64,000 nucleotides of DNA from an uncultured delta proteobacterium (GCA_963769935.1 CAVYNY010000009.1:288001-352000), one strand, 5' to 3'; shown: positions 2,879 to 12,185, numbered from the stretch's first letter. The notes: generated by a model not told the origin, from the letters alone. Numbers and translations: made by a program.

Positions 2879-3301
2879 CTATTTTGATGATCTTGGGTCG
2901 GTATTCTTTTTTTTTGCCAGCTGATTGCCCCTGATTTTAACGATCAGCAAGGCGGCGCCAAAAAACGAAAACCCTGTAACGGCTGAAAATCCGGAGGAGT
3001 TGAAATTGAAATAGGAAGCCGTCTCCTGCCCGATAAAAGCACCTAAAATCAGCACCAATATGGGAAACATATAAAGCAAAAAGGTTGCCTTTAACAGAGA
3101 TCCGGTTTCAAAGCTCAGAACTATCCGGTCGCCCGCTTTGGCGCCGACGTCATTGATAACCTCCACCTCCATTTCCTCGCTGGCGCCTGAAGAATGACAG
3201 GACTCCCTGGCTGAACAACCCGCGCAGCCACCGCTTTTGACGGTTTTCACCCATGCCGCTCCTGCATCGGTTTTAATGACAACGCCCTGTTCGGTAGCCA
3301 T
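2879..3301 (-). CDS. RseC/MucC family protein (Rnf/Rsx-associated)
   Basis: EQGVVI...GCAGCSARESC...GAKAGDRIVL plus two TM helices; last codons probably shifted by an A-homopolymer (a plausible true end is KKEYRPKIIKIVK*). Confidence 0.85.
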   Translation of the reverse strand: MATEQGVVIKTDAGAAWVKTVKSGGCAGCSARESCHSSGASEEMEVEVINDVGAKAGDRIVLSFETGSLLKATFLLYMFPILVLILGAFIGQETASYFNFNSSGFSAVTGFSFFGAALLIVKIRGNQLAKKKNTDPRSSK

Positions 3302-3404
3302 TTCAGTGGTCCTTTGTGAATGAATATTGAAAATTGAAGATTGAATATTTGTGGTATGCTGTCTGTCTTATGTCGGGCTTGTTCTTTATAGAAGCAAAAG
3401 CAAA

Positions 3405-3555
3405 TAGAATGACGAACGTCGGATGTCGAATTAAAGGATACTATCTATTTTAAAAATGTATGAACCAAGATAAGTGGCGAAGCGACACGCCGCGCTGCGC
3501 GAGCGACTTCCTTTATTCGTCATTCTTCATTCGTCAATTGTCCTTCGTCATTCTA
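3405..3555. repeat. Palindromic GAATGAC-heptamer element (family C)
   Basis: TAGAATGACGAA...TTCGTCATTCTA ends; second copy at 8551-8683; supplies the stop codon of the upstream minus-strand gene. Confidence 0.75.
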
Positions 3556-5632
3556 ATGTTTCGCCGACGGCTTCCTCTTCAGCCTGCTGCGGCGGCGCTG
3601 GATGGGCATAGCATATTAATCCGCATTGCAAGCATCTTGAAGCTTCGGCTCGGGCCATTTCGCTGCTGAAGCCCCTCTCGATTTCACCGCAGGCTGCAAG
3701 CTGCCGTCCGCTGCAAATCGGCATGATCCGGCGCTGACTGGCCGCAACCGCTTCGACGTGGTCGACATCCTGCAATACGGAATGCGGTGTGATGACATGT
3801 TCGGTCAGGGACGGTCCAATTCCGTACATGATCTGCTGCACCGAGGCGGCTGCTCTTCTTCCGGCCCCGATGGCCTTGATGGCGGCACTGTAATCGGCCA
3901 GAACCTCTCCATCTGAAAACAGACCGACTTCGTCCTTGAATGCCGGCGGCTTATAGGGCGGGACGGCCTCCCATTTCAGCGGTTGATCGGAAGGCCGGTC
4001 GGTTTCACCTTCCGTTGATTTTTGCTCGACAAAGATCAGCTCCGGAAAACGCCCCGTCGCCATGATCAGGGTTTGGGCTGCAAGGGTGCCGGTTGCCCGC
4101 GATTTGGTTTCAACATACTCCAGTTGCGCCAGGCGATCTCCAATCCCGCGCAGACGATGAATCGCGGCATTATAAATGACATGCAGCCCTTCTTCAAGGC
4201 CCGCGTCTTTAACATCGGCATCGGTGATCGGGCTATTTTCCAGATCCTCGCGGAACATGAGGGTAACCTCTTGCGCACCTGCCGCCCTGCAAATGCCGGC
4301 CGCCTTCAGCGCCAGCTTGCCGCCGCCGAAAATAACCACATTCGACTGGCCGGCAAATATATCGGTACCGGCCGCCAATTTTAAAAGATCGACCATCAGA
4401 TAGGTACCGGGCACCGGCGATTCAATTTCGCTCGCCGCTCCACGCGCCATTCTGCCGTCCCAGCCGCCGGCTGCCAGAAAAACTGCTTCAAAATCCTGTT
4501 GGAGCAGCTTGTCGACGGTAAAATCCTTTCCCATGACCCGGCCGGTCTCCGCTTTGACTCCCATTTCAAGGATGCCTTCGATATCCCAGTCCAGAATCTC
4601 CCGGGGAAGCCTTTCAGCCGCAATGGCACTGCGCAATAGCCCGCCAAGTTGCGGACCCGCTTCATATACGGTAACTGCATGGCCCAGGCGGGCCGCAAAA
4701 AAGGCCGTGGACAGGCCCTCCACCCCGCCCCCGACCACCGCGATGCGGCGGCCCGAGGCCGGGGCTGCGTACGGCTGAATGCGTTCACCGCTTTCTCTTT
4801 CATAGTCGGCGGCATAGCGCTTGAGATAATTAATCGCCACGGGCTCATCGATGAAATTGCGCCGGCATTCCAGTTCGCAGGGACGGGGACAAATCCTGCC
4901 GATAATCGCCGGAAAAGGATTGCGCTCTTTAATGACCTGAACCGCACGATGATAATTCCCGAGAGAAATTTGCCGGATGTATTCGCGAATGTTGATGCCG
5001 GCCGGACAGCCCCGCTGACAGGGCGTGGTGCATTCCTCGGTCGTATACTCGCGCATGATGCGGCGGGTTACGGAAGACAGATTAATGATGTGTTTGGGGC
5101 AAACCCTTTCACAGGTACCGCAGCCGGTACATTTATCTTCAATCACCACCGGCAGTCCTTCGGGCCCCATGACAATCGCTTTAAAAGGGCAGGCTTTGGC
5201 GCAGGTTCCCAGCCCCAGGCAGCCGATGGTGCAAACTTTCATGCCGCCGCCCAGCAGGGCGACGGCCCGGCAATCATCCAGGCCGTCATAGACATATTTC
5301 GTATCGGCAGCCTGAACCCCGAAATAGCAGCCGGGTCGGGCAATATCCGGCTCTTTGGCCTCGATTTTAACTCCCATAATTTCGGCGATGGCTCCGACCA
5401 CTTCGGCACCGGCCGCGACACACGAATTGGGCGCTGAAATTCCGGACACGATCGCTTCGGCATTGGCGCTGCAACCCGGCAGCCCGCAGCCGCCTCAATT
5501 CGCGCCCGGCAGCGCGCCTTCGACGGCCTCTACCTTGGGATCAACATATACGTAAAAAAGTTTCGATGCCAGAGCGAGAACGGCACTGATGATCAGTCCC
5601 ATGCCTCCCATCAAAATAAGCGCTGTGGTCAT
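3548..5632 (-). CDS. RnfB-like membrane-anchored polyferredoxin fused to GltD/NfnB-like FAD oxidoreductase; probable selenoprotein (TGA at codon 46)
   Basis: ATG at 5632 with GGAG RBS: MTTALILMGGMGLIISAVLALASKLFYVYVDPKVEAVEGALPGAN*GGCGLPGCSANAEAI is in frame with ORF 3548-5449; CTIGCLGLGTCAKACP, CTGCGTCERVCP, PCQRGCP, GRICPRPCELECRR, Rossmann motif, EASRCLQCG. Confidence 0.88.
5465..5494 (-). promoter_or_regulatory. Candidate bacterial SECIS hairpin
   Basis: Directly 3' of the UGA (5497-5495): GGC-G-GCUGC-GGGCU-GCCG-GGUU-GCAGC-GCC stem-loop with a G-initiated apical loop. Confidence 0.6.
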
Positions 5633-5731
5633 TTCATACTCCCGAATCGGATATAATTGGTGTCATGTCCTTTATATAATTTACAAAACATGGGTTGAAT
5701 TGACAATGCTTTCTTCTCCATGATTTCGTAT

Positions 5732-5958
5732 AAATTCCAAATATCAAATCACAAATTACAAATAAATATCAAATCACAAAACTCAAATTCAAAACACTTC
5801 TTAGTTTTCAGCGAATCAAGTCCATTCGACTGACTCTGATAAGCTTCATTCTGCCTGAGTTCAAACCGAAGGAACCACTTGGCTGCGAGTCAAAACCTGT
5901 TTGGGTCATTGGAGCTTGGATATTGTTTGTTATTTGTTTTTTGGTGCTTGGAATTTTT
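5732..5958. repeat. Palindromic heptamer-like element (family D)
   Basis: AATTCCAAATATCAAATCACAAATTACAAA... left arm, ...TTGGTGCTTGGAATTT right arm; related copy at ~14211-14420. Confidence 0.65.
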
Positions 5959-6037
5959 TATACTCAAAGAATCAACTATAGTATAGCTATCCAGTTTCAC
6001 TTTTTTAACATATTTGTGGGAGGCAACACTCTCTTTG

Positions 6038-6110
6038 TCCACCATCCAGCATCCACCATCCAGCATCCACCATCCAGCATCCAGTATCCAGTATCCAGTA
6101 TCCAGCATCC
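6038..6110. repeat. Heptamer tandem repeat (ATCCAGY/ATCCACC), about 10 units
   Basis: ccaccatccagcatccaccatccagcat...ccagtatccagtatccagtatccagcat. Confidence 0.9.
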
Positions 6111-6112
6111 CG

Positions 6113-7900
6113 TCAGAAAATCGCATCAAACTTGCACTTCTCAAAACAGGTCATGCATTGGATGCATTTTTCTTTATCGATCCAGGCAACCTCTTTCTTT
6201 TTCCAGACAATGGCATCGGCCGGGCAGCTCCGGAAACAAAGCCCGCATTTGGTGCACATGTCCGGATTGACTTCAAATTTCAAGAGCGCCGTGCAGCGCT
6301 TGGCCGGACATCGTTTTTCATAGATATGGGCCTCATATTCGTGCCGGAAGTAGCGCAGGGTGGAAAGCACCGGGTTGGGTCCGGTCTGGCCCAGGCCGCA
6401 CAAGGCGGTTTCCTTGATGGCGGCCGAGAGCTCCTCCATGGTTGTCAGATCATCCGGTTCCCCCCGGCCTTCGCAGATTTTTTCCAGCAGCTGCAAAAGC
6501 CGTCGGGTGCCCTCACGGCAGGGAGTACACTTGCCGCAGGACTCATCCTGCACAAAGTCCATGAAAAATCGGGCCATGTCCACCATGCAGGTGTTCTCAT
6601 CCATAACAATGGCCCCGCCGGAGCCCATGATGGCCCCCACTTTGGCAATGGCTTCGTAATCAACCGGTGTATCCAGGTGCTGCTCCGGAACGCAGCCCCC
6701 GGAAGGACCACCGAGCTGGACCGCCTTGAATTTTTTCTTGCCGGGAATACCGCCCCCGATATCATAGACAATGGTTCTGAGGCTTGTTCCCATCGGCACT
6801 TCTACCAGACCGATATTATTAATATCGCCGGACAGAGCGAAGACCTTGGTTCCTTTGCTGCTTTCGGTGCCGACGCTGGCATACCACGCCCCTCCTTTTA
6901 AAATAATCTGGCCGATATTGGCCAGGGTCTCCACATTGTTTAAGACGGTCGGCTTCTCCCACAGTCCCTGATGGGCCGGAAACGGCGGACGGGGCCGCGG
7001 CATCCCGCGCTTGCCCTCGATTGACCGCATCAAAGCCGTTTCTTCGCCGCAAACAAAGGCACCGGCTCCCTGATAGATATTAATATCAAAATCGAAGCCG
7101 GTTCCCAGAATATCTTTGCCCAGCAGTCCGTAGTCCCTGGCCTGTTTGATGGCGATTCCCAGCCGGCGGATAGCCAGGGGATATTCCGTCCGGGCATATA
7201 TGACGCCCTGATGGGCATCAATAGCTCTGGCGGCAATAATCATCCCTTCCAGAACCGCATGCGGATCGGCTTCAAGGACGCTGCGATCCATAAAGGCACC
7301 GGGATCACCTTCATCCGCATTGCACAGCACATATTTGATATCTCCCGGACTCCGGCGGGCAAACTCCCACTTTAATCCGGTTGGGAAGCCGGCACCGCCG
7401 CGCCCTCTGAGCCCCGAAGTTTTTACCTCTTCGATGATCTGCTCGGGAGTCAACTCCTGCAACGCTTTGGCGGCTCCGAAGTAGCCGTCCCTGGCAATGT
7501 ATTCCTCAATCACCTCCGGATCGATGAGTCCTTTGTTCCGCATTACCCTGAACATCTGGTTGGCAAAAAAAGGAATTTGCGCCATATTCGGGATGGTTTC
7601 TTTGGAAGTGGGCTCCTTGTAAAACAACTCTTTAACCGGGCGGCCTTTTAGGAAATGCTCTTCTACCAGATGGGGAACATCTTCCGCTTTCAGCTTCTGA
7701 TAAAAAATGCCTTCGGGCTGAACCAGCATGACCGGCCCGACGGCACAAAAGCCGTTGCAGCCGGTTTCAATGATCTTGATCTCCTCGGCCAGCCCTTGCC
7801 GCTCGAGCTCCTGTTGAAGTGTTTCCGCAAATTTTTTTGTCCCACTGGCATGACAACCCGTACCGCCGCAGAGCATCAAATGGGTTCTAACCTTATTCAT
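6113..7900 (-). CDS. NuoF/HndC-like NAD(P)H-binding flavoprotein subunit
   Basis: N-terminal Trx-like 2Fe-2S domain, SGLRGRGGAGFPTG, NADEGDPG, GAFVCGEETAL, ESCGKCTPCREG, C-terminal 2x[4Fe-4S]; RBS AGGAGA before ATG 7900. Confidence 0.95.
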   Translation of the reverse strand: MNKVRTHLMLCGGTGCHASGTKKFAETLQQELERQGLAEEIKIIETGCNGFCAVGPVMLVQPEGIFYQKLKAEDVPHLVEEHFLKGRPVKELFYKEPTSKETIPNMAQIPFFANQMFRVMRNKGLIDPEVIEEYIARDGYFGAAKALQELTPEQIIEEVKTSGLRGRGGAGFPTGLKWEFARRSPGDIKYVLCNADEGDPGAFMDRSVLEADPHAVLEGMIIAARAIDAHQGVIYARTEYPLAIRRLGIAIKQARDYGLLGKDILGTGFDFDINIYQGAGAFVCGEETALMRSIEGKRGMPRPRPPFPAHQGLWEKPTVLNNVETLANIGQIILKGGAWYASVGTESSKGTKVFALSGDINNIGLVEVPMGTSLRTIVYDIGGGIPGKKKFKAVQLGGPSGGCVPEQHLDTPVDYEAIAKVGAIMGSGGAIVMDENTCMVDMARFFMDFVQDESCGKCTPCREGTRRLLQLLEKICEGRGEPDDLTTMEELSAAIKETALCGLGQTGPNPVLSTLRYFRHEYEAHIYEKRCPAKRCTALLKFEVNPDMCTKCGLCFRSCPADAIVWKKKEVAWIDKEKCIQCMTCFEKCKFDAIF

Positions 7901-7958
7901 TCTTTTCTCCTGCAATTCAATTACCAGGAACCATCACGTCCTCTGAGACCGTTTACTT

Positions 7959-8453
7959 CTATTTGTACTTTTCAAGGGTCTCTACAACCTTGTCGGCCTT
8001 AACACCGCCATAGGTGTCCTGATCCACCACCATCACAGGCGCAAGGCCGCAAGCTCCCAGACACCTGACCGCTTCCAGCGAAAACCGCCGATCCTCGGAG
8101 ACGCCGCCCCCTTTCAGGTCGAACTTGTTTTCGATACGGCCGATAACCTCCTTGATGCCCTTGACGTAACACGCCGTTCCCATGCACACCTTAATTATAT
8201 GGCGGCCTTTGGGCTCAAATGAGAAAAGGGCGTAAAACGAGGCGACACCGTAAACTTCGCTGCTGGAAAGATTGAGTCCGTAGCTGATATAATCAATCAG
8301 CTCGACAGGCAGATATCCAACGACATCCTGACATTCCCGCAAAACGCCGATGACCGATCCGGGGATATCCCGGTTAGCGGCGATAATCTCATCGATTTTA
8401 GTCCACATATCATTTTGGATATCAGGATGCTGGGGATGAATGTCATAAGTCAT
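7959..8453 (-). CDS. NuoE/HndA-like 2Fe-2S subunit
   Basis: VASFY...VCMGTACYVKG...VRCLGACGLAPV. Confidence 0.95.
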   Translation of the reverse strand: MTYDIHPQHPDIQNDMWTKIDEIIAANRDIPGSVIGVLRECQDVVGYLPVELIDYISYGLNLSSSEVYGVASFYALFSFEPKGRHIIKVCMGTACYVKGIKEVIGRIENKFDLKGGGVSEDRRFSLEAVRCLGACGLAPVMVVDQDTYGGVKADKVVETLEKYK

Positions 8454-8512
8454 GCATAACCTCCGGTTGATGAGTGATGACCTGGTCGGGGGATAAAAAA
8501 ATTAAACGTCGC

Positions 8513-8541
8513 AATATCACATAAGCGCATATAAATGTCAA
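8513..8541 (-). promoter_or_regulatory. sigma70 promoter of nuoE-like operon
   Basis: TTGACA-17 bp-GATATT on minus strand. Confidence 0.55.
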
Positions 8542-8550
8542 CGGACCCTC

Positions 8551-8683
8551 TGGAATGACGAACGACGATTGACGAATGCAGAACGGTGGAAATCGCTTCG
8601 CTCAGTCATCTAAATTTATGGAGCACTTTAAAATGGTCAGAATGCCTTAATTCGTCATTTTACATTTGTCATTCGTCATTCCA
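8551..8683. repeat. Palindromic GAATGAC-heptamer element (family C)
   Basis: TGGAATGACGAA...TTCGTCATTCCA. Confidence 0.75.
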
Positions 8684-8705
8684 AAGGTTCGTCATCCGTA
8701 CTTCC

Positions 8706-9281
8706 TCAGTCTCCTTCAAATTCGATTATTGAAAAGACTTTTCGGTTGCCGAGTTTCTCTCTGCCTTTAAGATCGGGCAGTTCAACGACAAATGCGCATT
8801 CAACAATTTCGCCGCCAAGTTTTTCGACCAAATTTGCAGCTGCCGTGATGGTGCCCCCGGTTGCCATCAAATCATCCACGATAACCACGCGTTCGCCCTT
8901 TTCGATGGCATCCTCATGAATCTCGATCGTTTCTTCCCCGTATTCCAAGGTATAGGATTCGCGGATGGTCTTATAGGGCAGTTTGCCGTTCTTGCGGACC
9001 GGCACGAATCCTACGTCCAGCTTGTATGCCAACACGGACCCGAATAGAAATCCCCGGGCATCGATGCCCACGATTTTAGCAATATTCTGTTTGGCATAGC
9101 GGTTGTAAAAAATGTCACATATTTCCCTGTGCGCCAGGGGATCCTGCAATAAAGTTGTAATATCTCTGAAGATGACACCTTTGATAGGCCAATCCGGGAT
9201 GGACCTGACTTTGCTTTTAATGTAGTCACAGGCCTTCTGATAATCATAGTTCACAGCCGAGGAGGAAGTCGGGGATTTCAT
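8706..9281 (-). CDS. apt: Adenine phosphoribosyltransferase
   Basis: PDWPIKGVIFRDITTLL, GIDARGF, YTLEYG, VVIVDDLMATGGT. Confidence 0.95.
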   Translation of the reverse strand: MKSPTSSSAVNYDYQKACDYIKSKVRSIPDWPIKGVIFRDITTLLQDPLAHREICDIFYNRYAKQNIAKIVGIDARGFLFGSVLAYKLDVGFVPVRKNGKLPYKTIRESYTLEYGEETIEIHEDAIEKGERVVIVDDLMATGGTITAAANLVEKLGGEIVECAFVVELPDLKGREKLGNRKVFSIIEFEGD

Positions 9282-10033
9282 TTTGCACCTTCTTGTTGGG
9301 AAAGTCGATGAATGGTTTCCAATAGTATTTTTTTAACATTATCAACATTATTATTAAAAATTGCCAAAATATCCTGCCAGACGGGCATTTGCTCGTCTTC
9401 TTTCCAGCAGTCGTAATCCGTCGACATGGCGATAACCGCATAGGGAATACCGGCCTCTTTTGCCAGCGCAGCTTCTGTTGCGACGGTCATATTGATGATA
9501 TCCGCTCCCCACAGGATAAACATCTTTGATTCCGCTCTGGTTGAGAATCGGGGACCTTCAATGGTTACCAGCGTTTTATTTTTGTGAACCCTGAATCCCA
9601 TTGCGGAGGCAACGGAATAGAGCAGATCGCTTAAGTTTTTATCAAAGGGGTCCGCCATAACCTCATGAAACATACCCTGACTGAAATCATCGTGGAAGGT
9701 ATTGATTCTGCGTTTGGTAAAGTCTATAAACTGGTCGGGTATAATAAAGTCGCCTCTTTGAATTTCGGACTTTAAACTGCCGCAGGCATTGGTCGCAATA
9801 ATATGGGTGGCGCCTGAATCCTTCAAGGCCTGAATATTGGCGCGATAATTTACATGGGTCGGGCTAAACTGATGACGATTGCCGTGGCGGGCCACAAAAA
9901 CAAGCTCAATATCATTTAGCTTGCCGGAATTAACCGATATTTCGCCGTAGGCCGTCGCCCGATTTTGACTTTGCAGATCTTTTATAATATCAGGATCATC
10001 TAATCCGGAACCACCGATAACTCCGATCTTCAT
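9278..10033 (-). CDS. mtnP: S-methyl-5'-thioadenosine phosphorylase
   Basis: IGVIGGSG, ARHG, NYRANI, PDQFID, IEGPRFSTRAES, STDYDCW; RBS AAGGAG before ATG 10033. Confidence 0.93.
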   Translation of the reverse strand: MKIGVIGGSGLDDPDIIKDLQSQNRATAYGEISVNSGKLNDIELVFVARHGNRHQFSPTHVNYRANIQALKDSGATHIIATNACGSLKSEIQRGDFIIPDQFIDFTKRRINTFHDDFSQGMFHEVMADPFDKNLSDLLYSVASAMGFRVHKNKTLVTIEGPRFSTRAESKMFILWGADIINMTVATEAALAKEAGIPYAVIAMSTDYDCWKEDEQMPVWQDILAIFNNNVDNVKKILLETIHRLSQQEGAK

Positions 10034-10264
10034 TAAAGACTCCTTTCCGCGACTCACACAATGTGGTTATCATCCTGAATTTTGCTCAGCAAAATAAAAT
10101 AGCAAAAAAAGCGCTTAAGGTAAAGGATTTTAACTCAAATAATTAAGCCGCCGGGGCTTCGATCAAATAAGCTTCATCAGTTTTCAAAAACCCTATCCAC
10201 CTCTGAATGGCCCATATATCAAGGCGGCTTAATTAACAGGATGCTGATAGCGGCCATCTGCTCC

Positions 10265-10294
10265 TTGACACCCATCTCTGCCCTAATCTATACT
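10265..10294 (+). promoter_or_regulatory. sigma70 promoter for the DRTGG-PHP-HATPase-ferredoxin operon
   Basis: TTGACA-18 bp-TATACT. Confidence 0.6.
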
Positions 10295-10380
10295 TTGGGC
10301 AACTTAAATTCCCGTGAGCACCCGACCTTCGGATCACTGCGACAAAATTGTTGGGGACCCTGACAACAGTTTAATGACCT

Positions 10381-10452
10381 TGTGGGAGCGGTTTTTAACC
10401 GCGATCAACCCGCTCAAGTCAACATCTGTAATCGTGGTTAAATACCGCTCCG
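10381..10452. repeat. Inverted pair of GTGG-family REP-like palindromes (REPIN-like)
   Basis: TGTGGGAGCGGTTTTTAACCGCGAT ... ATCGTGGTTAAATACCGCTCC; single copies at 16826-16850 and 32146-32202. Confidence 0.75.
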
Positions 10453-10531
10453 GCCAACTATTAACTCCAGTCTGAAAATGACATGAATTTAATAAAATTT
10501 CATGTGCGCGCAATTGTAAATAAAAAAGGAA

Positions 10532-10882
10532 ATGGGCAACATGACGGTAAATGATCTCGTGGCACGTTTTGACCTGCAGGTTGCGGCCGGTGAAAAAGGC
10601 CTTGAACGTAAAATCGCAGACGGCTACTGCGGCGATCTGCTCAGCGAAATAATGGTCAATGCCCCCGAAGGCTGTGTCTGGTTGACAATTCAGGGACATC
10701 AAAACATTGTGGCGGTCGGCGTCCTGCGTGAAATGGCCGGCATCATCATAACCGGCGGCCGGACACCGGATGATGAAACCCTGCACAAGGCAAATCAGGA
10801 AGGCATTCCTATCCTGCTTTCGCCCGACTCGGCCTATCAACTTGCAGGGCAGCTGTATGCCATCGGAGTGGGCAATCCTTAA
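10532..10882 (+). CDS. DRTGG domain protein
   Basis: GYCGDLLSEIM...VWLTIQGHQNIVAVG...IIITGG. Confidence 0.9.
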   Translation: MGNMTVNDLVARFDLQVAAGEKGLERKIADGYCGDLLSEIMVNAPEGCVWLTIQGHQNIVAVGVLREMAGIIITGGRTPDDETLHKANQEGIPILLSPDSAYQLAGQLYAIGVGNP

Positions 10883-10897
10883 GAAAGAGAATGACGA

Positions 10898-11242
10898 ATG
10901 ACGAATGTCGAAGATACTCTGAAAAAATACAAGGCCGACCTGCACATCCACAGCTGTCTATCGCGCTGCGCGGATTGGGATATGAGTCCCAGACCGATTA
11001 TCCAAAGAAGTCAGGAAGTGGGGCTTGATTTAATTGCGATCTGCGATCATAATACAGCGAAAAATGCCGAGGCAGCCGTGCGCGAAGGCCAAAAAAAGGC
11101 CTTCACGTTCCGCCGGGCATGGAAATCCGCTTTTATTGAAGACCTTGGAAAGGTGTGGACCGTATTCCGGATGGCGGGGCCCACCGTCGAAGAGGTCCGC
11201 CAATCATTATTGCAACTTGACGGAAGGAGGAATGTGGTCTGA
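10898..11242 (+). pseudogene. PHP domain protein with large internal deletion
   Basis: ADLHIHSCLS, IAICDHNTA, then (shifted frame) GLHVPPGMEI joined directly to the C-terminal FIEDLGKVWTVF; central PHP motifs missing. Confidence 0.75.
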
Positions 11243-11824
11243 TTGCATGAGCTGTCACTTCACATTCTGGATATTGCCGAAAACGGCATTACCGCCGGGG
11301 CCGACTGTATTCAAATTCTGATCAATGAAAATCGAAAGGAAGATTTACTGACGATTGCCATTACGGACAACGGACGAGGTATGCCGGCTGAAAAACTCAA
11401 AAACCCCACCGACCCGTTTATTACTTCCCGCACGACCCGCAAGGTAGGAATGGGTCTGTCGCTGCTGGCCGCAGCGGCCGAGCGATGTGACGGAAGGCTT
11501 GCAATTGAGACTGAAGCCGGCCGCGGGAGCCGGGTTACGGCCACCTTCCGCTACACTCATATTGATCGCGCGCCCGTCGGGGATATGGCCGTAACGATAA
11601 CGACCTTAATTATGGGAAATCCGCGGGTTGATCTTGTTTACCGCCACATTATCGACGCCGAGGAATTCATGCTGGACACCAGGGATCTCAAAGAGGGATC
11701 GGCGGACAATTCCCTGGCGGATCCGGTCATCCTGCATCATTTATCCCAAAGTATCCGCAATTCTCTCAACCGGCTGGCATTAAAAGACGGCACGTCTGAA
11801 CCAACGGAGGATAGTCATGGCTAA
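11243..11824 (+). CDS. HATPase_c ATP-binding protein (hnd-cluster type)
   Basis: ELSLHILDIAENGITAGA, DNGRGM, DPFITSRTTRKVGMGL, HIDRAPVGD. Confidence 0.9.
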   Translation: MHELSLHILDIAENGITAGADCIQILINENRKEDLLTIAITDNGRGMPAEKLKNPTDPFITSRTTRKVGMGLSLLAAAAERCDGRLAIETEAGRGSRVTATFRYTHIDRAPVGDMAVTITTLIMGNPRVDLVYRHIIDAEEFMLDTRDLKEGSADNSLADPVILHHLSQSIRNSLNRLALKDGTSEPTEDSHG

Positions 11825-12185
11825 ATTAACAATTGATGATTTGAAAAAAATAAAGGCGGAAACCGCCAAGAGCACTTCCCTGCGTGATGGTGCAGCCAAT
11901 GTAAAAATCACCGTTCACATGGGAACCTGTGGCATTGCCGCCGGAGCGCGTGGGGTGATGAACGCGCTGATGGAGGAGATGGCCCAGACCGATCGCCAGG
12001 ACATTCGGGTGTTCACATCCGGCTGCATGGGCATGTGCAGCAGTGAACCCAACGTAACGGTTGAAATTAAGGGCGCCGCACCGATTGTCTATCAAAAAAT
12101 GGAAGCCAACCGGATGCGCCAGGTGTTTAAACGGCATGTGCTTTTGGGTGAAGTCCAAAAGGACTTCGTGTTGGCGAAGAAGTGA
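11817..12185 (+). CDS. HndB-like thioredoxin-fold (2Fe-2S) ferredoxin
   Basis: ITVHMGTCGIAAGAR...SGCMGMCSSEP. Confidence 0.9.
   Translation: MAKLTIDDLKKIKAETAKSTSLRDGAANVKITVHMGTCGIAAGARGVMNALMEEMAQTDRQDIRVFTSGCMGMCSSEPNVTVEIKGAAPIVYQKMEANRMRQVFKRHVLLGEVQKDFVLAKK

What the first reader, a model, noticed from the sequence alone, without database searches (positions are those of the whole stretch)
2879..12185. Hydrogenase-less HndABC/NuoEF module coupled to a membrane-anchored RnfB-flavoprotein and RseC
Seen: NuoE/HndA, NuoF/HndC (with extra Fe-S domains), HndB, and the DRTGG/PHP/HATPase accessory genes that usually accompany electron-bifurcating [FeFe] hydrogenases are present. No catalytic HndD, Fdh or NuoG gene is in the window. 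The gene downstream of nuoF is instead the RnfB-NfnB-like fusion followed by rseC, with no rnfCDGEA nearby. Established: HydBC-like modules partner different catalytic units, and Sporomusa Stn pairs NuoEF-like subunits with an NfnB-like protein. Inference: a membrane-tethered transhydrogenase or bifurcating complex, or an alternative RnfB that plugs an NADH/NADPH module into Rnf. The fusion's nucleotide-binding motifs are atypical (GGGVEGL, GGGKLAL), so its substrate may differ.
Basis: partly seen in the sequence, partly recalled or inferred. Interest (0 to 1): 0.72.

Follow-up and report, generated by a model that had tools for sequence, protein, structure and literature searches.

The report
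Formate dehydrogenase docking subunit for Rnf
These genes encode a second, likely selenium-containing copy of the ion-pump subunit RnfB that has lost its NADPH-binding motifs, plus a hydrogenase-type NADH module, and both likely work with a formate dehydrogenase encoded elsewhere in the genome, which would let sulfate-reducing bacteria pass formate electrons straight into the Rnf pump.

Summary
The genes are real and conserved, but the module is probably not catalyst-free. The fusion (3548-5632) is a second paralog ("RnfB2") of the published ~700-aa Desulfobacterales RnfB; the first paralog sits in a full rnf operon on contig C22. RnfB2 keeps its Fe-S and FAD residues, has lost the NADPH motifs, and carries an in-frame TGA (likely selenocysteine) in 6 related genomes. 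In 151 order genomes nuoF lies directly upstream in 49 of 59 that have both. The tightest partner, however, is a stand-alone NuoG-type Sec formate dehydrogenase (FdhA, contig C28): 100 of 104 RnfB2 genomes have it (phi 0.83; acetyl-CoA synthase control 0.32). FdhA lies within 12 kb in 11 of 100 genomes, and one distant genome has rnfCDGEA-RnfB2-FdhA-hndB-nuoF in one run. A complex prediction supports RnfB2-FdhA binding (0.70, best control 0.00) at the old NADPH face. Best reading: RnfB2 wires FdhA into Rnf, with NuoEF an optional bifurcating arm. No activity is shown. This scan noted the module and the TGA before on other DNA, not the FdhA link.

The parts
2879..3301 (-). rseC, membrane protein with a CxxCxxxxxC motif; likely Rnf accessory
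   Evidence: Pfam RseC_MucC E 4.6e-32; downstream of the fusion in 34 of 40 loci
3548..5632 (-). RnfB2: 694-aa fusion of N-terminal membrane helix, RnfB Fe-S domains and a StnC/NfnB-like FAD domain with degenerate NADP(H) site
   Evidence: 39% identical to the rnf-operon RnfB on C22
5495..5497 (-). In-frame TGA at codon 46, first Cys position of the RnfB Fe-S motif (GAN-U-GGC); likely selenocysteine
   Evidence: TGA in 6 related genomes, TGC/TGT in 52 others; the six form one clade, support 98; selB, selD, tRNA-Sec present
5462..5494 (-). Candidate SECIS element (codons +1 to +11 after the TGA)
   Evidence: third codon positions 0.83-1.0 conserved in the 6 TGA genomes, 0.33-0.67 from codon +12 on; folding energy not better than shuffles
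6113..7900 (-). nuoF / HydB-type flavoprotein with the sequence hallmarks of bifurcating beta subunits
   Evidence: best PDB matches 7t2r_B, 7q4v_B, 9bov_B, 8oh5_B; motifs AFM, RPPFP, GGPSG, extra Fe-S
7959..8453 (-). nuoE / HydC-type [2Fe-2S] subunit
   Evidence: NCBIfam HoxE/NuoE
8706..10033 (-). mtaP and apt, purine/methylthioadenosine salvage genes between the two halves; not part of the redox module
   Evidence: variable position in relatives
10532..10882 (+). DRTGG-domain accessory gene
   Evidence: Pfam DRTGG
10898..11242 (+). PHP-domain gene with an internal in-frame deletion of about 140 aa; likely inactive
   Evidence: 114 aa against 254 aa in G010, both ends kept; an RNA contig of a near strain covers the junction without gaps
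11243..11824 (+). HATPase_c accessory gene
   Evidence: Pfam HATPase_c
11817..12185 (+). hndB-like thioredoxin-fold [2Fe-2S] protein

Best explanation
The fusion is a second large RnfB that has lost its NADPH motifs and likely docks the stand-alone selenocysteine formate dehydrogenase FdhA (contig C28), so that electrons would run from formate through FdhA, the fusion's FAD and Fe-S chain into the RnfAEGDC ion pump, or in reverse for CO2 reduction. NuoE and NuoF likely bind the NuoG-like arm of the same FdhA as an optional HydBC-type branch to NAD+ and ferredoxin. Shown: gene content, motif loss, co-occurrence, gene order. Predicted: RnfB2-FdhA contact. Inferred: assembly with Rnf, NuoEF-FdhA contact, selenocysteine insertion, direction of flow and ion pumping.
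For: (1) Genuine RnfB: 0 of 103 fusion genomes lack rnfD and 0 of 14 rnfD-less genomes have the fusion; it is the RnfB of complete rnf operons in 8 of 10 loci of this type outside the order. (2) NADP(H) site lost, FAD and Fe-S kept: mean identity in the NADPH domain 0.32 in 34 RnfB2 against 0.65 in 13 RnfB1, other domains similar; RnfB1 keeps GGGNTA and YRR..E.PAN; GxGxxG, E324, K271 and R341 (equivalents of StnC K170 and R239) are invariant in 60 of 60. (3) Co-occurrence with FdhA in 151 genomes: 100 both, 4 fusion only, 7 FdhA only, 40 neither, phi 0.83; among 111 genomes with both Rnf and acetyl-CoA synthase 89/2/4/16, phi 0.81, while fusion against acetyl-CoA synthase gives 0.32; the 28 Rnf-positive genomes lacking both fall in 20 families, 6 of which also hold genomes with both. 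Outside the order a full-length FdhA ortholog is in 8 of 10 RnfB2-type genomes and 1 of 16 others. (4) Gene order: FdhA within 12 kb of the fusion in 11 of 100 genomes, 9 families, directly upstream in G001 and G018; G317 has rnfCDGEA-RnfB2-FdhA and G287 has rnfCDGEA-RnfB2-FdhA-DRTGG-PHP-HATPase-hndB-nuoF co-oriented; FdhA lies beside 5 of 10 RnfB2-type and 0 of 10 RnfB1-type loci. (5) The same nuoEF ortholog (78%) is directly followed by FdhA in two Rnf-less genomes, G101 and G150. (6) Complex prediction of RnfB2 (92-680) with FdhA (1-305): median 0.70 (0.70, 0.54, 0.72), best of 3 controls 0.00, runs agree in at least 75% of contacts, partner pLDDT at least 79; the mark was reached by 116 of 157 solved complexes and 2 of 215 mismatched pairs, counts that hold only roughly for my own alignments. 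The contact lies at the FAD face and the degenerate GGGKL motif, against the FdhA-specific insert in the N5-cluster motif.
Against: No activity, purification or co-expression is shown. The complex prediction may pass by likeness to StnC/NfnA, which hold both domain types in one chain, and RnfB1 was not run as a specificity control. Predicted interface residues are not more conserved than average (0.70 against 0.68; 0.79 against 0.79). In 89 of 100 genomes FdhA is not near the fusion. Related genomes are not independent, so phi overstates. Seven genomes have FdhA without the fusion and four the reverse; G019 (97% complete) has the nuoEF ortholog with no Rnf, no fusion and no FdhA found with this query. 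Three of the five neighbouring FdhA genes outside the order are a short type without the NuoG arm. In D. multivorans the only FdhA was not detected in 17 proteomes (PMC5109826, passage). Co-transcription across 5632-6113 is not shown. selA is frameshifted in this assembly.
Confidence: 0.65

Rival explanations
1. NuoEF and FdhA form a soluble Hyl/Fdh-type bifurcating formate dehydrogenase; RnfB2 is only a ferredoxin-accepting alternative RnfB of the same pathway, with no direct contact.
For: nuoE-nuoF-fdhA is one run in G101 and G150, which lack Rnf; G030 and G109 keep nuoEF and FdhA without the fusion; nuoF has bifurcating hallmarks.
Against: 42 genomes have fusion and FdhA but no nuoF ortholog; FdhA tracks the fusion (phi 0.83) better than it tracks nuoF (0.40); the direct pair passes the complex prediction; a ferredoxin-only RnfB would not need the invariant FAD residues.
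Confidence: 0.15
2. RnfB2 binds FdhA but acts as a membrane anchor or a relay to another membrane partner (RseC or a quinone-linked complex), not as an exchangeable subunit of the C22 Rnf complex.
For: In this order RnfB2 is encoded away from the rnf operon, which has its own RnfB; rseC follows it in 34 of 40 loci. Assembly with RnfA/E was not tested.
Against: Strict dependence on rnfD; in other orders it is the only RnfB of the operon; the N-terminal Fe-S domain is well conserved (0.83).
Confidence: 0.1
3. One reading: NuoE, NuoF, HndB and the fusion form a membrane-tethered transhydrogenase or NADH/NADPH module with no further catalytic subunit.
For: nuoF directly upstream of the fusion in 49 of 59 genomes; the fusion's FAD domain is most like StnC/NfnA.
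Against: The NADP(H) motifs are lost; the fusion lacks the [2Fe-2S] arm by which StnC meets StnB, while FdhA has it; 44 of 103 fusion genomes lack the nuoF ortholog; hndB is in a divergent, eroded cluster.
Confidence: 0.07

Closest known systems
Large RnfB of the Desulfobacula toluolica Tol2-type Rnf (RnfB2 of Desulfococcus multivorans, 691 aa; PMC5109826)
   Same: Same architecture and length: membrane anchor, RnfB Fe-S domains, nucleotide-binding flavoprotein domain; the genome's C22 operon (large RnfB, cytochrome, rnfCDGEA) is of this type.
   Different: The window gene is a separate paralog clade (39% identity, support 100), outside the operon in this order, without the NADP(H) motifs, followed by rseC, tracking FdhA, and with a TGA codon in one clade.
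StnABC of Sporomusa ovata (8oh5) and NfnABC (9bov, 9n5u)
   Same: NuoE = StnA, NuoF = StnB; the fusion's residues ~195-675 match StnC residues ~95-570, including the Lys ligand and the FAD Arg; FdhA matches the NuoG/FdhF part of StnC.
   Different: StnC is one soluble chain that binds NADPH and has an inactive FdhF domain (PMC10482914). Here the two parts are separate genes, the NADPH site is lost, the Fdh has a Sec active-site motif, and the flavin domain is fused to a membrane RnfB. The predicted contact is at the FAD face, not at the chain junction of StnC.
HydBC-type bifurcating module of HydABC and NiFe-HydABCSL (7q4v, 8a6t, 7p5h, 7t2r); Hyl-Fdh formate dehydrogenases (name recalled)
   Same: NuoF aligns over its full length and has the bifurcating-type motifs; the DRTGG/PHP/HATPase/HndB genes accompany it.
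   Different: No hydrogenase subunit in the genome; the likely catalytic partner is encoded in trans and appears to be tied to Rnf.
fdhF2 adjacent to nfnB in Seep-SRB1g (PMC10553843)
   Same: A cytoplasmic formate dehydrogenase gene next to an NfnB-like gene in Desulfobacterota (passage).
   Different: Read there as a soluble NADPH-recycling bifurcating enzyme, with no RnfB link. I could not tell whether it is the same gene pair; 5 of 17 supplementary files were not searched.

Membership tests
RnfB (Rnf subunit B) | N-terminal membrane helix followed by the CxxCxxxxC..C Fe-S domain and ferredoxin-like clusters | tested here: met
   hydropathy 2.4 at residues 4-22; PF04060 at 41-72; matches to 7zc6_B and 9eri_B; first Cys is TGA here
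RnfB (Rnf subunit B) | Occurs with rnfCDGEA | tested here: met
   103 of 103 genomes have rnfD; inside the operon in 8 of 10 loci outside the order
RnfB (Rnf subunit B) | Assembles with RnfA/E and passes electrons to the membrane core | not testable with these tools
Tol2-type large RnfB (RnfB1) | Intact NAD(P)H-binding motifs in the C-terminal domain | tested here: not met
   GGGNTA and YRR..E.PAN kept in 13 RnfB1 rows, lost in RnfB2; domain identity 0.65 against 0.32
Stn/NfnABC transhydrogenase | StnC chain with [2Fe-2S] arm, NADPH-binding GltD domain and NuoG/FdhF domain in one protein | tested here: not met
   the fusion covers only the GltD-like part and lacks the NADPH motifs
Stn/NfnABC transhydrogenase | StnAB (HydBC-like) module | tested here: met
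   nuoE and nuoF; 8oh5_B E 2.4e-218
NfnAB | NfnA partner and Glu ligand at the cluster next to FAD | tested here: not met
   Lys (K271) invariant at that place, as in StnC; no nfnA seen in 40 loci
Bifurcating HydB-type beta subunit (criteria of PMC7311640) | A/E-x-M near the NADH site, Phe near FMN, GGPSG, extra Fe-S clusters | tested here: met
   ADEGDPGAFMD, RPRPPFP, GGPSGG, [2Fe-2S] plus two [4Fe-4S]; matched by motif, not by T. maritima numbering
Bifurcating HydB-type beta subunit (criteria of PMC7311640) | Coupled NAD+ and ferredoxin reduction | not testable with these tools
   needs enzyme assays
Hnd/HydABC [FeFe]-hydrogenase | H-cluster catalytic subunit | tested here: not met
   PF02906 not found in G000, 96.7% complete
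Bacterial selenoprotein | Conserved in-frame TGA aligned with Cys in homologs | tested here: met
   6 TGA, 52 Cys
Bacterial selenoprotein | SECIS hairpin just downstream | tested here: inconclusive
   synonymous-site footprint over 11 codons and a 5-bp stem with a G-rich loop 16 nt after the TGA; energy not better than shuffles
Bacterial selenoprotein | selA, selB, selC, selD in the genome | tested here: met
   selB, selD, tRNA-Sec in G000; selA frameshifted in this assembly but whole in the 5 other TGA genomes

The most novel reading that the evidence does not exclude
Most Desulfobacterales run one Rnf pump with two exchangeable input subunits: an NADPH-binding RnfB1 and a formate-specific RnfB2 that carries a Sec formate dehydrogenase on its flavin face, making an ion-pumping formate dehydrogenase-Rnf supercomplex, in about half of them extended by a HydBC bifurcating arm, and in one clade with a selenocysteine-ligated Fe-S cluster at the entry to the membrane core.
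Probability: 0.5. Interest if true: 0.87.

Novelty: new variant of a known kind. Interest (0 to 1): 0.76.

Why it matters
The large-RnfB Rnf of Desulfobacterales was flagged as working differently from classical Rnf, with unknown partners (PMC5109826). These bacteria oxidise acetyl-CoA through the Wood-Ljungdahl pathway, whose formate step yields low-potential electrons (established knowledge). A dedicated RnfB that couples that formate dehydrogenase to the pump would name a new energy-conserving site in dominant marine sulfate reducers (104 of 151 sampled genomes), explain why the FdhA and nuoEF genes stand alone in these genomes, and be directly testable by complexome profiling. It would also show a modular step beyond Stn: the same domains split into two genes, with formate replacing NADPH. 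The TGA codon offers a natural Cys/Sec pair at an Fe-S ligand of RnfB.

Tried and rejected
Frameshift or pseudogene reading of the TGA: rejected, since it is conserved in 6 genomes at 70-76% protein identity with both flanks intact. SECIS by folding energy: no signal, z +0.6 to +1.6; loose motif scans for other Sec genes gave mostly noise and were not used, except the two FdhA genes. Recent deletion of a catalytic gene at this place: rejected, the 5 closest relatives have the same run. Wood-Ljungdahl lifestyle as the cause of the FdhA co-occurrence: not sufficient. RNA evidence: contigs of 4 sediment metatranscriptomes of one study, about 98% alike, cover nuoE, nuoF, the fusion, rseC and fdhA, but they are unstranded contigs and none of the listed pieces bridges the whole nuoF-fusion gap, so they show neither level nor co-transcription. 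Promoter/terminator scan: consensus matches upstream of nuoE and inside the 5632-6113 gap, not informative. The single-chain model has low confidence in the RnfB part (pLDDT under 50 for 40-95 of the modelled chain), so only its flavin-domain fold match was used. Interface conservation: not enriched. rseC is more widespread (123 of 151) than the fusion and does not mark it. Rfam: no match in the window. The careful tree did not finish; the quick tree is cited. One review on sulfate-reducer energy metabolism could not be read, and the D. toluolica primary papers were not seen.


Full report
1. Observation. The minus strand carries mtaP, apt, nuoE (7959-8453), nuoF (6113-7900), a fusion gene (3548-5632) and rseC (2879-3301); the plus strand carries DRTGG, PHP, HATPase and hndB (10532-12185). 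No NuoG, Fdh or rnfCDGEA gene is in the window, and no [FeFe]-hydrogenase domain was found in the genome, which is 96.7% complete. The accessory cluster is eroded: PHP is 114 aa against 254 aa in a same-genus genome, by an internal in-frame deletion, and the Fe-S, RsbW-like and second DRTGG genes seen in relatives were not found.

2. The fusion. Read from ATG 5632 it is 694 aa: a membrane helix, the RnfB Fe-S domain (41-72), a ferredoxin pair, a Fer4_20 domain and a FAD oxidoreductase domain. Codon 46 is an in-frame TGA in place of the first Cys (GAN-U-GGC). This architecture is published: D. toluolica Tol2 and D. multivorans have a ~700-aa RnfB with nucleotide-binding sites and an RnfC lacking the NADH domain, with an unverified mode of action (PMC5109826, passages and supplement rows). 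The window's genome has such an operon on C22: large RnfB (705 aa), cytochrome, rnfCDGEA. The window gene is a second paralog, 39% identical. I call them RnfB1 and RnfB2; these labels are mine and differ from the paper's numbering. In a quick maximum-likelihood tree of 47 rows they separate with support 100.

3. What RnfB2 keeps and loses. In 60 orthologs the Fe-S regions have mean majority conservation 0.81-0.84, the first FAD region 0.74 and the NAD(P)H domain 0.49. As a control, mean pairwise identity in the NADPH domain is 0.65 in 13 RnfB1 rows and 0.32 in 34 RnfB2 rows, while the other domains are similar; RnfB1 keeps GGGNTA and YRR..E.PAN, RnfB2 does not. GxGxxG, E324, K271 and R341 are invariant in 60 of 60. 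By alignment to 8oh5_C, K271 and R341 equal StnC K170 and R239, the residues of a non-bifurcating FAD site (PMC10482914 sections 9 and 11). Inference: RnfB2 binds FAD but not NADP(H).

4. Selenocysteine. Of 58 loci examined, 6 have TGA and 52 have TGC/TGT. The six genomes (two genera) form one clade, support 98. Third codon positions are 0.83-1.0 conserved for 11 codons after the TGA and 0.33-0.67 beyond, as a SECIS would give, though the folding energy is not unusual. The genome has tRNA-Sec, selB and selD. Its selA is split over three frames, probably by assembly indels, since the other five have whole selA and RNA contigs show another indel in an A-run of rseC. Two selenoprotein papers list RnfC but not RnfB, or neither (PMC5029168 passages and 5 supplements; bioRxiv 2022.07.06.499078 passages). 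An earlier scan note says this type is catalogued; I could not confirm that.

5. Synteny. In 151 genomes of the order, RnfB2 was found in 103 (104 with one cut by a contig end), the nuoF ortholog in 68, rnfD in 137. nuoF is directly upstream of RnfB2 in 49 of 59 genomes with both, in 34 families. In 40 of the 103 loci, chosen for score and contig length, 22 have nuoE-nuoF-RnfB2 (18 with a DRTGG gene between nuoE and nuoF), 34 have rseC downstream, and none of the 22 has a catalytic gene in the run. RnfB2 never occurs without rnfD (0 of 103), whereas the nuoF ortholog does (4 genomes). Outside the order, 32 of 251 phylum genomes matched; of 20 loci read, 10 are RnfB2-type, and 8 of these are the RnfB of a complete rnf operon. 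So RnfB2 is a real Rnf subunit type.

6. The missing catalytic subunit. In two Rnf-less genomes (G101, G150) the same nuoEF (78% identity) and accessory genes are followed directly by a NuoG-type formate dehydrogenase. The window's genome has an ortholog (62-70% identity) standing alone on C28, with a CARL-TGA-HSST motif and no nuoEF beside it. Of the 40 further FdhA loci fetched, only G056 has nuoEF nearby. This FdhA was found in 107 of 151 genomes. Against RnfB2 the table is 100 both, 4 RnfB2 only, 7 FdhA only, 40 neither (phi 0.83); RnfB2 against nuoF among Rnf-positive genomes gives 0.39. Acetyl-CoA synthase, as a lifestyle control, gives 0.32, and within the 111 genomes that have both Rnf and the synthase the table is 89/2/4/16, phi 0.81. 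Kin are not independent; still, the 28 Rnf-positive genomes lacking both genes fall in 20 families, 6 of which also hold genomes with both. FdhA lies within 12 kb of RnfB2 in 11 of 100 genomes, 9 families, directly upstream and co-oriented in G001 and G018. Outside the order, G317 has rnfCDGEA-RnfB2-FdhA and G287 has rnfCDGEA-RnfB2-FdhA-DRTGG-PHP-HATPase-hndB-nuoF, all co-oriented; an FdhA gene lies beside 5 of 10 RnfB2-type and 0 of 10 RnfB1-type loci, though 3 of the 5 are a short type. A full-length ortholog is in 8 of 10 RnfB2-type genomes and 1 of 16 others, that one of unexamined type.

7. Structure. The flavin part of RnfB2 is closest to NfnA (9n5u, 9bov) and StnC (8oh5) by sequence and fold; FdhA matches NAD-linked formate dehydrogenases and the NuoG/FdhF part of StnC. 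FdhA has a conserved insert of about 26 aa inside its His/Cys cluster motif. A complex prediction of RnfB2 92-680 with FdhA 1-305 scored 0.70 (runs 0.70, 0.54, 0.72), best control 0.00, contacts agreeing at least 75%, partner pLDDT at least 79. The mark was reached by 116 of 157 solved complexes and 2 of 215 mismatched pairs, roughly only, as I supplied the alignments. The contact joins RnfB2 residues 334-341, 391-401, 436-440 (the degenerate GGGKL), 525-527, 581-583 and 633-646 with FdhA 10-32 and 101-144 (the insert). This would put an FdhA cluster at the face where NADPH used to bind. Caveats: a pass may reflect likeness to StnC/NfnA; RnfB1 was not run as a control; interface residues are not more conserved than average.

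8. Mechanism. Most likely (0.65): formate is oxidised at the Mo/W-Sec site of FdhA; electrons pass through its Fe-S chain to the FAD and clusters of RnfB2, then through the N-terminal cluster (Sec-ligated in this clade) to RnfAE and the pump; the reverse would drive CO2 reduction. NuoF has the hallmarks of bifurcating beta subunits (PMC7311640 passages) and would bind the [2Fe-2S] arm of FdhA as in HydABC and StnABC, giving an optional branch to NAD+ and ferredoxin; 42 genomes have RnfB2 and FdhA without it. Shown: gene content, motif loss, co-occurrence, gene order. Predicted: the RnfB2-FdhA contact. Inferred: everything about electron flow. The exit side of this Rnf type is unknown (PMC5109826). 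RseC as an Rnf accessory is recalled knowledge, consistent with its place beside rnf operons.

9. Against. G019 has the nuoEF ortholog with no Rnf, RnfB2 or FdhA found. G030 and G109 keep nuoEF and FdhA without RnfB2. D. multivorans FdhA was not detected in 17 proteomes. RNA contigs do not show co-transcription.

10. Novelty. The large RnfB, Stn and HydBC modules are known. I found no paper linking a second large RnfB to formate dehydrogenase in the searches (listings only, apart from the papers cited); subscription papers, including the D. toluolica originals, were not seen. The nearest hint is fdhF2 beside nfnB in Seep-SRB1g, read as a soluble NADPH enzyme (PMC10553843 passage; 12 of 17 supplements searched). 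Earlier scan notes saw the TGA and the nuoEF-RnfB-RseC module on other genomes; a word search found none with the FdhA link. Verdict: a new variant of known redox machinery, widespread and testable; interest 0.76.

Noticed in passing
G000:C11:285724-285797: tRNA-Pyl (CUA) called by ARAGORN; the genome may encode both pyrrolysine and selenocysteine.
   Followed up: no
G000:C22:678083-679500: selA is split over three reading frames; whole in five relatives, so likely assembly indels. Other split genes were seen on C15, C17 and C35.
   Followed up: partly
G000:C20:157619-158545 and C7:116160-117080: Two selD copies, each with one in-frame TGA.
   Followed up: no
L063:8764-10716 (G025); similar in L142, L146: A 650-aa protein joining the NuoF C-terminal 4Fe-4S domain to an intact GltD-like domain lies between FdhA and RnfB2; possibly an NADPH arm for the same FdhA.
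   Followed up: no
L089:657-7670 (G101): Tandem Sec formate dehydrogenase genes after nuoEF; the second has a GltD domain inserted, i.e. a StnC architecture with an apparently active Sec-Fdh.
   Followed up: no
L180:11341-14295 (G287): A 984-aa FdhA-like gene ending in a NuoE-like motif, in one run with rnfCDGEA, RnfB2 and a NuoF-GltD fusion.
   Followed up: partly
L102 (G007:C153): rnfD-G-E-A followed by an RnfB/NuoE-like gene, hndB and nuoF (62%): another direct link of a HydBC module to Rnf membrane subunits.
   Followed up: no
L181:6221-10492 (G167): RnfB2 is followed by a gene that looks like formate-tetrahydrofolate ligase (judged by eye) and an HdrA-like gene, again tying RnfB2 to formate metabolism.
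   Followed up: no
L091, L092 (G030, G109): nuoE-DRTGG-nuoF with RnfB2 and rseC missing while the flanking genes are kept; their RnfD lies in an open frame of about 740 aa.
   Followed up: partly
window:8706-13363: apt, mtaP and mtnA (methylthioadenosine salvage) are interleaved with the redox genes; PNP, MtaD and adenine deaminase genes lie upstream of nuoE in many relatives.
   Followed up: no
window:36666-63998: About 27 kb dense in PAS histidine kinases, response regulators, HD-GYP and HDOD genes, several apparently split.
   Followed up: no
window:6037-6111: Imperfect short tandem repeat (GGATGCT/GGATACT-like units) after the nuoF stop, absent in an RNA contig of a near strain.
   Followed up: no
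L104:54-1309 (G010); L095, L097, L113: cNMP-binding proteins, one fused to an HndB-like [2Fe-2S] domain, accompany the accessory cluster in relatives and are missing here.
   Followed up: no
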